NCBI GenBank assembly: GCA_951406725.2
Contig: OX597830.1
Coordinates: 11,098,001-11,162,000 of the forward strand
Reading direction: 5' to 3'
Source of the DNA: Octopus vulgaris
Taxonomy: Eukaryota
Length of the DNA stretch: 64,000 nucleotides
In this document: positions 7,497 to 50,835 of the stretch, one piece after another
Layout: each line of letters begins with the position of its first letter
How positions within the stretch are numbered: the first letter of the stretch is position 1
The notes under the pieces: generated by a model
Told to the model about the DNA's origin: nothing
The model's input: only the letters and a program-made list of their open reading frames with translations
Databases searched by the model: none
Position numbers and translations under genes: made by a program

Positions 7497-7866
7497 GTAA
7501 GTGGTTTAATCTGTTCCTATGTCCTCATATTTCAGTGTGTGTGTGTGGATGTGTGTGTGTGTGTGTGTGTGTGAAAAGTTCCTGGTTTTGGGTAAAAGAA
7601 AATTACAAGGAGGATCAGTTAATTATGATTTTATTCAACATATTCCCCTCTCAGATTCACACATTCATTGCAGTGGTCCTTCTGTTTTTCTAAGCCCTGT
7701 AAAAGAAACCGGAGGATTGGGCCTCCAGCCAAGCCTTTCGCAATACCCCTAATACCAGGAACTTTTCAGCACCCCCTTATATTTATATATATATATATAT
7801 ATATATATATATATATATATATATATATATAAAATGGAGTTAACGCAGGTTTAAACAAGTATTTTT

Positions 7867-7952
7867 ACTTTCTACATATGTTTCAAAAATCCCACTGATA
7901 CTTATTCAAAAGAATAAAGGTATAAACAATGCAATCTTCTCTTCGGGAAAGT
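7867..7952 (-). ncRNA. Degenerate hammerhead motif, same family as the 49.6 kb element
   Basis: actttc-CCGAAGA-gaagatt...gattttt-GAAA-CATATG-TA-gaaagt, between two (TA)n tracts. Confidence 0.65.
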
Positions 7953-8144
7953 GAAAAAACGAAACTTGTCAATACGACATTTTAGCAAAAAATGATGGAT
8001 TCGTATAGCCCTGGTAACTATTCATTCATTTATCCGTGTTAATTGTTAACAAGGTAAAATACACTCATCTATATATATATATATATATATATATATATAT
8101 ATATATATATATATATATATATATATATATATATATATATGAAG

Positions 8145-8308
8145 GAAGTAATTTTTTATTCTCAAACGCAGGATAATGCTAATAATAACTACACATATTT
8201 TACAGAAAAATGTGTCGGCGACAGATTTTTCTGCAAAATATGGATAGTTTATCCTGTTCGTGCTATATTATTAGCATTATCCGGCGTTTGAGAACAAAAA
8301 CTTACTTT
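8145..8308. repeat. Imperfect hairpin element between (TA)n tracts in the last decarboxylase intron
   Basis: ttctcaaacgcaggataatgctaataata / tattattagcattatccggcgtttgagaa. Confidence 0.8.
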
Positions 8309-8490
8309 ACTTTCTTAACTTTCTACAAATCTGTTTACTTACATCGTAATTTGAATTTTATATATATATATATATATATATATATATATATATATATATA
8401 TATATATATATATATATATATATATATATATATATATATATATATATATATATGCACATATATATTATTGTCATTTTTTATTCACCTTAG

Positions 8491-8664
8491 GCTACCAGGT
8501 GCATCAAAGCTATGATGATGGAGAACGGATCTCTTATGGTAGGCTACCAACCCCTGGGCGAACACCCCAATTTTTTCAGAGTGGTCATTTCTAACGCAGC
8601 AGTTATGGAAAAAGACCTGGATTTCTTAGTAGAAGAAATTGACCGCTTAGGGAGAACTCTTTGA
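8491..8664 (+). CDS. Terminal coding exon of the decarboxylase: [57 protein letters not shown]
   Basis: Polypyrimidine tract plus ccttag acceptor; matches the GAD/CSAD C-terminus (IKA.MM..G..MVGYQP....NFFR.VISN....D.DFL.EEI.RLG..L); TGA at 8662-8664. Confidence 0.95.
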
Positions 8665-8760
8665 TTTTTGCTTTCTTTACCATTTTCACATTTACGTATA
8701 GAAATCTTCGTGATAGGTAAGTAAATTTTGATTTTATACATGAAAAATATGATATAGTCC

Positions 8761-8766
8761 AATAAA
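8761..8766 (+). terminator. Candidate polyadenylation signal of the decarboxylase gene
   Basis: First AATAAA about 100 nt after the stop; further AATAAA near 9134 and 9200. Confidence 0.35.
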
Positions 8767-9723
8767 GATCATACATCGTTATAATAACTTGCTGAAAACT
8801 TAAGTTTCCAACAGAACTGTTCGGTCAGAAAGAACCAGAACTTATATGAAAGATCTTCTCGTATTGTGTGATGTGTTAAAAATATTGCAACTCAGCGTAC
8901 GACAACGACAGTTTTTGTTTCTTTGTTTGTTTTGCTTATTATATATATATATATATATATATATATATATATATATATATATATATATATATATCCTGAC
9001 TCTTTCTAAGAGGATGGCTTTGTAGATCGTTTAACGATTTTTTAGCTTTGTATTAACTAGTCATGAAATTTGAAAAAACGATGTTTGATCTTTAACGGAC
9101 TATATCATATCATATATTTTACGCTAGACATGAATAAACAAGAAATACCTTGATTATATTTACATTATCATTTTATTTTATTTCATTTTTGACCTGTATA
9201 ATAAAATATGCTGTCACTCTCTGTCATGCAGCTGGTATTGAGCACTCATTTTGTAGATATACACAAAGGTATAGTAAAGCATGCATAGATATACTGCATG
9301 AAATACTAGTTTATGAAATTTTGTGCGTCGTTTTACAAACTGTATTAATAATGGTAGTGAGCTCTTTCTTACATACATGCAGTCTGTAAAATAGTTGGTG
9401 TTATGAAGGGCATCTAGCCGTAGCACAGCAGACAATTGGCCAGCTTCTATCAAACCGTCCAACCCATGCCAGCATAGAAAACTGACGTTAAACGATGATG
9501 ATGATGACAATGATGATTATGAGGATATATATATAAATATATATATATAGGTTCAGTAAATAGTATTACATACATATAAGGGGGACTGCCACTACGTGGA
9601 CACCCTAACGCTAGAAGTAGATCCGCTATGGTCTTACCACTAAGAATTGTTCTATAGAAAATTTGGCAAACACCAGAAACGTAAGCGAGCAAGACAAAGG
9701 AAAAGTAACAAAAATATAGATTA

Positions 9724-9832
9724 ATCATAAACAATGTTTCACTATCAACAAATTACGTAATTTTACGTAATTTTACTTACGCAATTTACGTAATTTTACT
9801 TACGCAATTTATCAGTAGATCTTCAGTATGAT
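9724..9832 (-). ncRNA. Type I hammerhead-like motif
   Basis: atcata-CTGAAGA-t-ctactgataaatt...aatttgttgatag-t-GAAAC-att-GTT-tatgat. Confidence 0.7.
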
Positions 9833-47711: not shown

Positions 47712-48470
47712 GGCTTATAAACACCTTCCATGCTGCAATTGTTTTCGTTTCAGCACACGATCTCAGATCAAATCACTTGCTATGCAAGTACATCTCCCTA
47801 ATTCATATATTTCCTTCACAATTAGAAGCTACTACTACACATTGGTCTTTCCTCTACCTCTTAACCCCACTTTCCTCTATCTTTTACACTATAATACCTT
47901 TCTCTCTCTATCCCTACTCCTACTTTCTCCACTGACCACTGACTGACCTATATCTTAATTTTTCTTCTTTTCTTTTTTCTTTATTCCCTTCAGGGTTTTT
48001 ATTCTTTATTCTTTATTTTTTTTATTATTTTGTTATTTTTACTAATCTTCTCCTTTCTCTTTCATTCTTTCTTTCTCTCCTCTTCTTTCTCTTTATTTTT
48101 TTTTCCCCTCTTTATTTCAGTCCTCTCTTCCTGTTTTCAATTTAACCATACTAATAAACTCCCTATTTCTAGGTCAGTTTAAATACAAACCTTGACTCTG
48201 CTACACTCTATATAAATTCCCTACTGGGAATGACCAAGTTTAACAGAATCTTGCATTGCTTAAAAACTCTAAGGACTCATATTAAACTCTGTTGGACTTT
48301 TGGATTTTACTCAAAGGATGTTGGAATATTGCATATATACCACTATGCCTATAAAACGGATTTACAAATTCAATACCCATACATATCTTACATCTATTTT
48401 CTTTTCTCCACCTCACTCTCTACTTGTATCACATCAAAACTAACTATGACTTAATTTTTCCTCTCACACC

Positions 48471-48518
48471 GTCTCCGATGAAAGGATATTATTAATATCC
48501 TAGAAACAGCTGTAAGAC
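48471..48518 (+). ncRNA. Minimal type I hammerhead ribozyme, U4C variant
   Basis: gtct-CCGATGA-a-aggatatt(att)aatatcct-a-GAAA-CAGCTG-TA-agac. Confidence 0.75.
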
Positions 48519-49244
48519 CTATCTATAAAAGCTCTAATATCTATACAGCCTTGGTTTTTTATCTTATTATGCAAAAAATTCTTATGTACACACGCTGACA
48601 TAGAACCAACGTTGAACCCTTTATTTGCAATATTACCGAATCTGGAACTTAACTATGGTCTGTCTATAGCACTCATTCAGCATTACCTGACACCTTTGGG
48701 TCTCAATGGCACCATTATCTCCTATATATATATATATATATATATATACCATGTATATATATATATATATATATATATATATATATGTCCCTCCCCTACT
48801 CCTTTCCCATCCCCTTCATTATATCATGACCACCATCTAACACTGTTTTCATTCTCTCCTTTTCTTTCCTTCTTTCTTTCTTTCCTCACCTATTCCTTTT
48901 GACCATTCCCCTCTTTTTTTACATACATATCTATTCTCTTCTCTCTATCCACTTAATACTACCTCTACATTCTCAAAATTTCATTCACACCACAAGACCC
49001 CTTTGACTGAACAGCACTTTTAATTTGCCAAAGCAAAATATGAACTCCTATTGGAATTTACATATCATGGACAAGAAGCATTTCTACACATCGCTTTCTT
49101 TGGATAATGGAACTGCAACTATACATATATTTTTATTTTTACTTATTCTCTTATTTCCCTCTATACATCTTATTTCCATCCTTTTCCAAAACAACACCTT
49201 TACATTGAACTCTTATATTTCCCTCTGTTTAACCATTTCACATT

Positions 49245-49292
49245 GTCTCTGATGAAGGGATATCCCTAATATCCCAGAAACAGCTGTAAGAC
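49245..49292 (+). ncRNA. Minimal type I hammerhead ribozyme, intact core
   Basis: gtct-CTGATGA-a-gggatat(cccta)atatccc-a-GAAA-CAGCTG-TA-agac. Confidence 0.88.
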
Positions 49293-49609
49293 TAACTTTC
49301 TCTTTATAAATGTCCTGAAAATTCCACATAGCCTTGGCTTTGTTGTCACATTTTATTTAACACATACATATATATATATATATATATATATATTATGTGA
49401 AATAGAAAGATGAATAATCTTGTAGTAGATTAATCAAAGGTTTAACCGATACCTTAGTAGCAAAAATCACAGCAGTAAATAGCACGGTTGGAGGTACAAC
49501 CATATGGTGTTGCAACCGTGCGTTAGTGCGGATAATTGAAATTAAAACATTATTGGTGAATTGAAGAAATGGAGCTGAACGCAGATTGAACAGAAATCGT
49601 TTTATTTCA

Positions 49610-49689
49610 TTCTACACATGTTTCGAAAGGCACAAATTACCAAAATCCGATTGAATAATGGGACCATATTGTGCCTTTCTCTTCAGGAA
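49610..49689 (-). ncRNA. Type I hammerhead ribozyme in the left arm (opposite strand)
   Basis: Reverse complement of the 49900 motif; stem III reads CATGTG, one CpG-type change. Confidence 0.8.
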
Positions 49690-49899
49690 GAAAATAGGAA
49701 ATCCGTTGGAAAAACAAAAACAGAACAGAGGCGGAGCAAAAACAAATCGAACTATGCTCCTAAGAGCCCATGGTGAAACTGTTTATCAGTGTATGTTGAG
49801 AACCGGTGGCTGAAGAATTTAACGGGTCAGGCATCGGTCAATCATGTTTTTGCTCCGCCTCTGTTCTGTTTTTGTTTTTCCAACGGATTTCCTATTTTC

Positions 49900-49979
49900 T
49901 TCCTGAAGAGAAAGGCACAATATGGTCCCATTATTCAATCGGATTTTGGTAATTTGTGCCTTTCGAAACACGTGTAGAA
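49900..49979 (+). ncRNA. Type I hammerhead ribozyme in the right arm of a fold-back element
   Basis: ttc-CTGAAGA-gaaaggcacaa...ttgtgcctttc-GAAA-CACGTG-TA-gaa. Confidence 0.88.
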
Positions 49980-50835
49980 TGAAATAAAACGATTTCTGTT
50001 CAATCTGCGTTGAGCTCCATTTCTTCAATTCACCAATAATGTTTATATTTATATATATATATATATATATAAAGGAAAGATAGTGTTTGGGTGTGAGTAC
50101 AGTATTTTTTTTTTATGTTTTAATCATCATTTAATGTCTGTTGTCTATGCTGGCATGGGTTGGAATGTGTGACCAGGTTTGGCAAGTTGGAGTGCTGCAC
50201 CAGGCTCCAGTCCGATTTAGCAGGATTTCTATGGCTAGATGTCCTTCCTAACACTAACCACTATGTGCTGGGTGCCTTTACATGGCAACACATGGGTGCT
50301 TGTACATAGCTTTCTGACTGGATATTCTATGAAAGACTTCAATTGAATATAATTTAAGTAAAATACTTTACTTTTACTTTTTACTTGTTTCAGTCATGTG
50401 ACTGTGGCCATGCTGGAGCACCGCCTTTAGTCGGGCAAATCGACCCCCAGGACTTATTCTTCGTAAGCCTAGTACTTATTCTATCGGTCTCTTTTGCCGA
50501 ACTGCTAAGTTACGGGGACATAAACTCACCAGCATTGGTTGTCAAGCAATGTTGGGGGGACAAACGCAGACACACATACATATATATATATACATATATA
50601 CGACGGGCTTCTTTCAGTTTCCATCTACCAAATCCACTCACAAGGCTTTGGTCGGCCTGAGGCTATAGTAGAAGATACTTGCCCAAGGTGCCACGCAGTG
50701 GGACTGAACCCAGAACCATGTGGTTGGTAAACAAGCTACTTACCACACAGCCTTGTAAAATGTTTAATTTACTTAATCTATTCCTTGAAAATCTCTATAC
50801 CTTCAAACTTAAGCCTACTTGTTTTTGTTTTTTAG

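What the first reader, a model, noticed from the sequence alone, without database searches (positions are those of the whole stretch)
7830..50045. Candidate new mobile-RNA system: small fold-back elements whose arms carry hammerhead ribozymes, sitting in (TA)n tracts
Seen: at least six mostly sequence-unrelated short non-coding elements (9549-10363, 23521-23813, 24088-25114, 27132-27521, 47493-47711, 49545-50044, plus a single arm at 7830-7960) share one design. Each has long inverted arms, a minimal type-I hammerhead-like motif read outward from the centre (usually with a palindromic stem III), no obvious TSD, and usually (TA)n flanks. Established: Penelope-like elements carry such minimal, dimer-active hammerheads in terminal repeats that can be inverted, and known retrozymes are mainly direct/tandem repeats. 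Inference: these are non-autonomous, MITE-looking RNA elements mobilised by Penelope RT/GIY-YIG, relics of which are in this window. Either transcribed strand would carry a ribozyme and could fold into long dsRNA. I cannot confirm that they are undescribed.
Basis: partly seen in the sequence, partly recalled or inferred. Interest (0 to 1): 0.85.

Follow-up and report, generated by a model that had tools for sequence, protein, structure and literature searches.

The report
Penelope fold-backs with variant hammerheads
These hairpin-shaped DNA inserts do carry hammerhead (self-cutting RNA) motifs, but they are likely the already described head-to-head footprints of Penelope-like jumping genes, and the one fresh point is a very abundant short family whose motif has the core pair swapped (G3-C8), which would hint that its untested cutting activity is under selection.

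Summary
All seven listed places carry an outward-reading type I hammerhead motif: 6 strict hits against 0.26 in shuffles.

The reading as a new mobile-RNA system mostly does not hold. Head-to-head arms with a hammerhead on each strand, (TA)n targets and a one-sided tail are the published signature of Penelope-like element (PLE) insertion, including a Hydra-clade Repbase consensus. Here the arms are unequal. The 47493 element plus its one-sided tail sits in an exact 8-11-bp target duplication. Single arms occur. Other copies leave the fold-back at its centre. In read-through RNA the motif is predicted to be buried in the arm duplex in four of six elements. Hydra-type RT and endonuclease relics lie in the window.

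Three families look short and non-coding: one tRNA-headed, one circularly permuted, and one very abundant family whose core is G3-C8 in about 99% of laid contig depth in four runs. I found that swap in print only as an engineered rescue. Activity is untested, and no genome or Repbase comparison was possible.

The parts
7830..7975 (-). Single arm with decayed hammerhead 7867-7952 (core CCGAAGA, predicted cut after 7873), ending at (TA)n; related to the 49545 family
   Evidence: the end at 7975 is approximate
9549..10363 (.). Composite insert. Minus copy 9951-9549 holds a canonical hammerhead at 9723-9833 (7-bp stem I, long duplicated loop II). Plus copy 9953-10363 starts with the unit's 3' part, runs on into the part upstream of the hammerhead and stops at C3. 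Inferred circularly permuted unit of about 560 nt; 10-bp palindrome at the junction
23518..23816 (.). Fold-back with hammerhead-like motifs on both arms (23617-23653 minus, 23680-23717 plus), core UUGCAAA (U3-A8, C6); possible one-sided tail about 23450-23517
   Evidence: tail from sequence only; family consensus not tested
24092..25111 (.). Long minus copy with canonical hammerhead 24300-24428 (102-nt stem-loop II) plus an inverted 5'-truncated copy 24820-25111 that lacks CUGANGA; (TA)n on the left; possible tail 25112 to about 25290
27132..27560 (.). Head-to-head pair of a tRNA-headed unit: A box 27410-27420, T-loop/B box 27455-27463, deleted second head on the minus strand; canonical hammerhead 27179-27224 (minus) only; about 38-nt one-sided extension 27523-27560
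   Evidence: ARAGORN and Rfam do not call the head
47494..47801 (.). Fold-back 47493-47711 with palindromic junction, plus a one-sided tail to 47801; motifs 47542-47592 (minus) and 47612-47661 (plus, core GUGAACA at 47619-47625, G3-C8); very abundant family
47486..47493 (+). Left copy of the target-site duplication TTCATATA (11 bp if the shared TTT is counted)
47802..47809 (+). Right copy of the target-site duplication
49395..50044 (.). Fold-back 49545-50044 with canonical hammerheads 49610-49689 (minus) and 49900-49979 (plus); (TA)n on the right; high-copy one-sided extension 49395-49544
   Evidence: that the extension belongs to the same family is inferred
48471..48518 (+).
49245..49292 (+). 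Canonical minimal hammerhead of the same family, direct orientation, 774 nt downstream
46672..47077 (+). Decayed C-terminal GIY-YIG endonuclease of a Hydra-type PLE
36494..37955 (-). Decayed Hydra-type PLE reverse transcriptase, close to Hydra-1_Obim
56622..56657 (+). Further single hammerhead-like motif (U6, GAGA); weak, within the shuffle range on its own
44982..46248 (+). Host gene context: two SLC33A1/Acatn coding exons; the 46600-50050 cluster probably lies in a following intron

Best explanation
These inserts carry outward-reading hammerhead motifs and are likely insertions made by Penelope-like retroelement (PLE) proteins, with the second, inverted arm probably formed copy by copy during integration and not being part of a fixed fold-back RNA. 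Steps: (1) Inferred: the mobile RNA is a single-orientation unit, or a tandem or circle of it, whose 3' region holds one type I hammerhead. (2) From PLE literature: a GIY-YIG endonuclease nicks AT-rich or (TA)n DNA and RT starts at either of two internal sites downstream of the hammerhead, which gives one short end and one end with a tail. (3) Inferred: 5' truncation with fold-back or strand switching at a short palindrome adds an inverted partial copy head to head. (4) Shown in sequence: unequal arms, a one-sided tail, and one target duplication around arm+arm+tail. The templates are mixed. 24088, 48471/49245 and 49545/7830 look like 3' ends of longer PLEs. 27132 (tRNA-like head), 9549 (permuted unit) and 47493 look like short non-coding passengers, that is dispersed retrozyme- or SINE-like families. 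The hammerhead would act in the single-orientation RNA, as a dimer through its palindromic stem III or with protein help, and would be silenced in hairpin read-through RNA.
For: Motifs exceed chance: 6 against 0.26. The target duplication brackets an asymmetric unit (2.7% chance for 11 bp or more). The far end of that unit at 47801 agrees with a contig piece ending at 47802, and other copies carry the same tail on the left arm. Single arms occur at 7830, 48471, 49245 and 56622. Contigs leave 47493 at its centre (47605: 79, 83, 62 and 7 contigs, agreement 0.45-0.78), and one shows a fold-back with a different centre. Contigs continue uniformly past the 49545 junction at 49847 (7 contigs in one run, agreement 0.98; 1 in another). 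Depth rises about 20- to 100-fold from the endonuclease relic to the 48471 end, as 5' truncation predicts. RT and endonuclease relics both match one 806-aa RT-then-EN protein with a CxCX5C linker. Published precedent. MITE-like fold-backs in the window have symmetric ends, an 8-bp or TA duplication and no hammerhead.
Against: Each family has one copy in the window and no genome was held, so the share of monomers versus fold-backs was not counted. The 100-nt centre of 49545 is as deeply covered as its arms, which also fits a fixed unit. The loose-end table was cut (3696 rows not shown). A target duplication was found for 1 of the 6 hammerhead fold-backs; the others lie in simple repeats or gave none. 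No arm was matched to the 3' end of a named autonomous PLE (12 short motifs absent from the Craig supplement). The endonuclease relic and the 48471 end are not shown to be one element. No cleavage or expression data.
Confidence: 0.8

Rival explanations
1. One reading: fixed fold-back units are transcribed and retrotransposed whole, with a ribozyme on either strand and a long dsRNA intermediate.
For: Six of about ten hammerhead loci in the window are fold-backs. The centre of 49545 is as deeply covered as its arms, and fold-back copies of 47493 recur.
Against: Arms are unequal, and in three of six the second arm lacks a whole motif. One target duplication includes a one-sided tail. Centres vary between copies. 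The sense motif is predicted 90-99% paired outside itself in four of six elements.
Confidence: 0.1
2. All of them are only truncated 3' ends of autonomous PLEs; there are no independent short families.
For: 24088 has a simple-repeat-rich upstream part like a 3' UTR. 49545 continues upstream in other copies. 48471 lies downstream of an endonuclease relic.
Against: 27132 begins with a tRNA-like head with A and B boxes on both strands. Upstream of the 47493 centre, contigs become heterogeneous after about 10 letters. The 9549 unit reads back into its own start.
Confidence: 0.15
3. They are MITEs of DNA transposons, and the hammerhead likeness is chance.
For: Long inverted arms. MITE-like elements are common in this window (3166, 38167, 41161, 4388). 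The variant cores of 23521 and 47493 need relaxed rules.
Against: Strict hits 6 against 0.26, and a closing G-C pair in 5 of 6 against 1 of 26. Asymmetric ends. In 47493 the three near-fixed family letters inside the motif each improve it.
Confidence: 0.04

Closest known systems
PLE insertions with an inverted 5'-truncated copy and a one-sided tail (Craig et al. 2021, PMC8557442; Arkhipova et al. 2013, PMC3846280); Hydra clade, e.g. Penelope-13_HM
   Same: Head-to-head arms, a hammerhead on both strands reading outward, (TA)n targets, palindromes at the junction, 8-10-bp duplications when visible, and similar stem III letters (ACAG/CUGU, ACAC/GUGU).
   Different: No ORF between the arms. Putative tails here run from about 38 to 290 nt, not 30-40. 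Long loop II inserts of 55-102 nt.
Minimal hammerheads of PLEs (Cervera and de la Pena 2014, PMC4209133)
   Same: Short stem I, palindromic stem III, extra base after A9, G10.1-C11.1; pairs 100-700 bp apart on opposite strands and a U3-A8 variant reported in Schistosoma.
   Different: A G3-C8 core, and U3-A8 combined with C6, were not in the sections I read.
Non-LTR retrozymes (Cervera and de la Pena 2020, PMC7229834; Li, Clavereau and Pollet 2026 preprint)
   Same: Short non-coding units with a type I hammerhead, thought to be non-autonomous PLE derivatives; 9549 looks circularly permuted.
   Different: Defined as direct tandem repeats; here the copies are dispersed monomers or inverted pairs. 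Circles untested.
Schistosoma SINE-like hammerhead elements (as reviewed in PMC6765202)
   Same: Pol III-type promoter followed by a hammerhead, as in 27132.
   Different: Those occur in tandem; 27132 is a head-to-head pair with a PLE-type tail.
MITEs
   Same: Short, non-coding, fold-back shape.
   Different: MITEs have equal ends at a fixed duplication; these have unequal ends and hammerheads.

Membership tests
Type I hammerhead ribozyme | Core CUGANGA...GAAA...UH with stems I-III | tested here: met
   6 strict hits against 0.26; 47493, 23521, 7830 and 48471 meet it only as variants
Type I hammerhead ribozyme | 3-8 Watson-Crick pair | tested here: met
   C-G in most; G-C in the 47493 family (47585 T>C in 98.7-100% of depth in four runs); U-A in both arms of 23521 (one copy only)
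Type I hammerhead ribozyme | Match to an Rfam hammerhead model | tested here: inconclusive
   none among the 150 of 221 matches shown or the 10; 71 rows not shown
Type I hammerhead ribozyme | Self-cleavage | not testable with these tools
   needs an in vitro assay
PLE-mediated insertion | Inverted 5'-truncated copy head to head | tested here: met
   24088, 9549, 49545, 27132
PLE-mediated insertion | Tail at one end only | tested here: met
   47493, fixed by the duplication and by contigs; probable for 49545 and 27132; from sequence only for 23521 and 24088
PLE-mediated insertion | (TA)n or AT-rich target | tested here: met
   7 of 9 loci within 250 nt, background 16%; the 47493 target is AT-rich
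PLE-mediated insertion | 3' end shared with a named autonomous PLE | tested here: inconclusive
   12 motifs not found in the Craig supplement (lines wrap, one strand per motif); no Repbase or Dfam access
Autonomous PLE | RT-EN ORF inside the element | tested here: not met
   150 PLE-type proteins hit only the two relics, not the fold-backs
Non-LTR retrozyme | Direct tandem repeats, each with a hammerhead | tested here: not met
   the listed elements are inverted or single; only 48471/49245 are direct
Non-LTR retrozyme | Circular RNA | not testable with these tools
   only contigs were available
tRNA-derived SINE (27132) | A and B boxes in a tRNA-like head | tested here: inconclusive
   A box by pattern and T-loop GTTCGATTC by eye; my B-box pattern, ARAGORN and Rfam did not call it
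MITE | Symmetric terminal repeats directly bounded by a duplication | tested here: not met
   none at the arm ends of the hammerhead fold-backs; met for 3166 and 38167

The most novel reading that the evidence does not exclude
This genome holds a radiation of short, non-coding, PLE-mobilised families (dispersed, inverted retrozymes and a tRNA-headed PLE-dependent SINE) whose hammerheads have kept the catalytic 3-8 pair by compensatory change, including a natural G3-C8 core fixed in a family of probably over ten thousand copies. That would be in vivo evidence that hammerhead cleavage is selected for in PLE-type mobilisation, although it was dispensable in the one in vitro system.
Probability: 0.3. 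Interest if true: 0.65.

Novelty: new variant of a known kind. Interest (0 to 1): 0.4.

Why it matters
What the PLE hammerhead does is an open question: in the only reconstituted system, cleavage was protein-assisted and not needed for insertion (PMC11167929). A successful non-coding family that swapped both partners of the 3-8 pair is hard to explain without selection on the ribozyme fold, and it gives a cheap test with single and double reversions. In practice, these families look like MITEs and are likely to be misclassified as DNA transposons, and their hairpins in introns are potential dsRNA sources. The fold-back architecture itself is not new.

Tried and rejected
No whole genome was held, so no copy census.

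My first descriptors allowed only even-length or longer-looped stem III and missed the 9549 motif; one search found it. The loosest descriptor (16 hits against 4.1) is too noisy to use.

Rfam: no hammerhead among the matches shown. ARAGORN: 0 genes.

Metagenome pattern scan: 14 loci, 0 of 14 fit the descriptor or had repeats. The 47493 motif gave 0 matches in viral contigs and in prokaryote genomes. A word-indexed protein search with the endonuclease relic gave 0 of 44 candidates; the full search worked.

Sequencing runs: no RNA holder listed. X9 is only guessed to be RNA, so it says nothing on expression.

Earlier findings: nothing by sequence or for this genome. Two relevant papers (Lunse et al. 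on dimeric PLE hammerhead variants; Arkhipova et al. 2017 on Terminons) were not held, and the preprint's supplements were closed; any of these could already report G3-C8.

I first took the relics for Naiad; the RT-then-EN order and the CxCX5C linker point to Hydra instead. No convincing hammerhead was found in the fold-backs at 3166, 4388, 8146, 16830, 29478, 38167, 41161 or 44522.
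Full report
CONTEXT. The window is repeat-rich animal DNA (36% G+C) with SLC33A1/Acatn exons on the plus strand. No genome was held. It is probably an octopus. By eye, a 56-residue stretch of the RT relic matches the published Hydra-1_Obim at 45 positions, against 35-43% over the main block for other database relatives. 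I did not test the species further.

OBSERVATION. The inverted arms exist at the stated places. A type I hammerhead descriptor gave 6 strict hits: 9723-9833, 24300-24428, 27179-27224 and 49610-49689 on minus, 49245-49292 and 49900-49979 on plus. 100 dinucleotide shuffles in 400-nt blocks gave a mean of 0.26, and none reached 6. With one mismatch there were 14 hits against 1.73. Of those 14, five (1616, 8736, 9510, 18088, 43118) I do not count as established. A G-C pair closing stem II, a published hallmark that my descriptor did not ask for, occurs in 5 of 6 strict hits against 1 of 26 shuffle hits. Folded alone, seven of 12 motifs give stems I and II as their minimum-energy structure; 24088, 48471 and the 9549 motif fold otherwise. 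Stem III is a palindrome able to pair between two molecules (about -7 to -11 kcal/mol for the 8-nt ones).

ANATOMY. 49545 has two canonical motifs, (TA)n at one end and a high-copy 150-nt extension at the other. The single arm at 7830 is its relative. 24088 is a long minus copy plus an inverted copy truncated inside loop II. 23521 has UUGCAAA in both arms. 27132 is two tRNA-headed units head to head, each with different deletions; only one keeps the hammerhead. 9549 is a minus copy with the motif, joined at a 10-bp palindrome to a plus copy that begins with the unit's 3' part, continues into the part upstream of the motif and stops at C3. That suggests a tandem or circular template of about 560 nt (inference from one locus). 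47493 has a palindromic junction and a 90-nt one-sided tail, and arm+arm+tail (47494-47801) is bounded by an exact TTCATATA duplication, 11 bp with the shared TTT (2.7% of 3000 random anchors gave 11 bp or more). The MITE-like fold-backs at 3166 and 38167 have 8-bp duplications at symmetric ends and no motif.

FAMILY EVIDENCE. I laid contigs of 4 of the 24 listed runs on 46600-50050 at 80% likeness. Summed depth is not a copy number, but the contrast is large. In X1 it is 1.3-2.1 million over 47493, 0.4-0.6 million over 49545, 0.4 million at 48471 and 4,000-21,000 over the endonuclease relic, where single long contigs have depth 35-58. Three near-fixed differences fall inside the 47493 motifs, and each improves the fold. 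47585 T>C (98.7-100% of depth in all four runs) gives G3 opposite C8 in the left arm, as the right arm already has. 47554 C>T makes stem III a perfect palindrome. 47627 A>G restores stem II. Only 40 of 274 difference rows were shown. Loose ends at the centre (47605) number 79, 83, 62 and 7 contigs with agreement 0.46, 0.45, 0.47 and 0.78, so many copies do not continue into a second arm in this way; one contig shows a fold-back with another centre. Loose ends at 47502 are the reverse complement of the tail. At 49847, 7 contigs of X2 (agreement 0.98) and 1 of X9 continue past the junction with one sequence, so that family is longer than this copy. At 49543-49546, X6 contigs run into (TA)n. Against my reading, the centre of 49545 is as deep as its arms.

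PARTNER PROTEINS. The endonuclease relic has 1355 relatives at E up to 0.001. An 806-aa relative matches the RT relic (residues 88-488, E 2e-52) and the endonuclease relic (668-802, E 5e-17) and has a CxCX5C linker, the mark of the Hydra clade, nearly all of whose families insert in (TA)n and carry hammerheads. Which protein moves which family is not shown.

MECHANISM. See best explanation. The key inference is that the inverted arm arises at integration. A read-through transcript has one sense motif, and in four of six elements 90-99% of it is predicted to pair outside the motif (0% for 9549 and 28% for 27132), so the hairpin form is unlikely to be the catalytic or replicating one.

COMPARISON WITH PRINT. 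Craig 2021 (passages and supplement tables): the inverted 5'-truncated copy, the 30-40-bp tail, and Penelope-13_HM with an attached inverted copy and a hammerhead listed on both strands. Cervera and de la Pena 2014 (parts 1-2 of 4): dual minimal hammerheads 100-700 bp apart on opposite strands, and a U3-A8 variant. Arkhipova 2013 (passages): head-to-head repeats with junction palindromes, 8-10-bp duplications, pLTRs acting in trans. Frangieh 2024 (parts 1-2 of 4): tail explained by two RT starts; C3G/G8C partly rescues cleavage; cleavage not needed for insertion in vitro. Perreault 2011 (passages): natural U3-A8 and A6C. Naghdi 2020 (abstract): natural A6C. Kalweit-type G17 study PMC3884650 (passages): an engineered G3-C8 variant. 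Goubert 2022, Cervera 2020, PMC6765202, PMC10886601 and PMC6962438: passages only. Li 2026 preprint: part 1 of 5 and passages. Searches that bear on absence: no natural G3-C8 in the listings or the passages read; no paper on octopus non-autonomous hammerhead fold-backs. The library lacks most subscription papers, two key papers were not held, and Repbase and Dfam were not available, so novelty of the families and of G3-C8 is unproven. Earlier AI notes on shark windows reached the same reading for similar fold-backs; I did not test them and do not count them as support.

VERDICT. Works like: PLE integration products carrying PLE minimal hammerheads. Member of: PLE-mobilised sequences, yes on the tests I could run; retrozymes as defined, no (not tandem); MITEs, no. 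The architecture is known. The short families and the G3-C8 core are a modest, testable variant. Interest 0.4.

Noticed in passing
window 29478-29918: Second head-to-head fold-back with a tRNA-like head (Rfam tRNA 29751-29823, 32.8 bits) but no hammerhead; possibly a PLE-mobilised SINE without a ribozyme.
   Followed up: partly
window 48471-48518 and 49245-49292: Two sense hammerheads with the same palindromic stem III, 774 nt apart, probably in an SLC33A1 intron; they could pair in cis on the pre-mRNA, though the first has U4C.
   Followed up: partly
window 3166-3688, 38167-38561, 39639-39976, 40387-40808: MITE-like family with GGATCTTTTC ends; 8-bp duplications at the two copies checked; no hammerhead.
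   Followed up: partly
window 41161-41605 and 4388-4768: Symmetric fold-backs with TA-type ends, probably Tc1/mariner-type MITEs.
   Followed up: no
window 8146-8307 and 44522-44645: Small fold-backs without a hammerhead; 44522 shares a 24-nt stretch with the 23521 arm (z 7.0); 8146 sits between (TA)n tracts.
   Followed up: partly
window 8736-8864 (+) and 1616-1759 (+): Decayed hammerhead-like motifs in or near (TA)n; within reach of chance.
   Followed up: no
window 40240-41068: Fold-back interrupted by a MITE, with a weak inward-reading hammerhead-like match at 40286-40353; the opposite polarity would be unusual if real.
   Followed up: no
window 52369-53638: Mariner element with terminal repeats and a partial transposase frame (52625-53317, Pfam Transposase_1).
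   Followed up: partly
window 55926-56127 and 57511-57712: Inverted pair of 202-nt repeats ending in (CTTGA)n-type tails that brackets a probable exon (56287-56406); potential pre-mRNA duplex.
   Followed up: no
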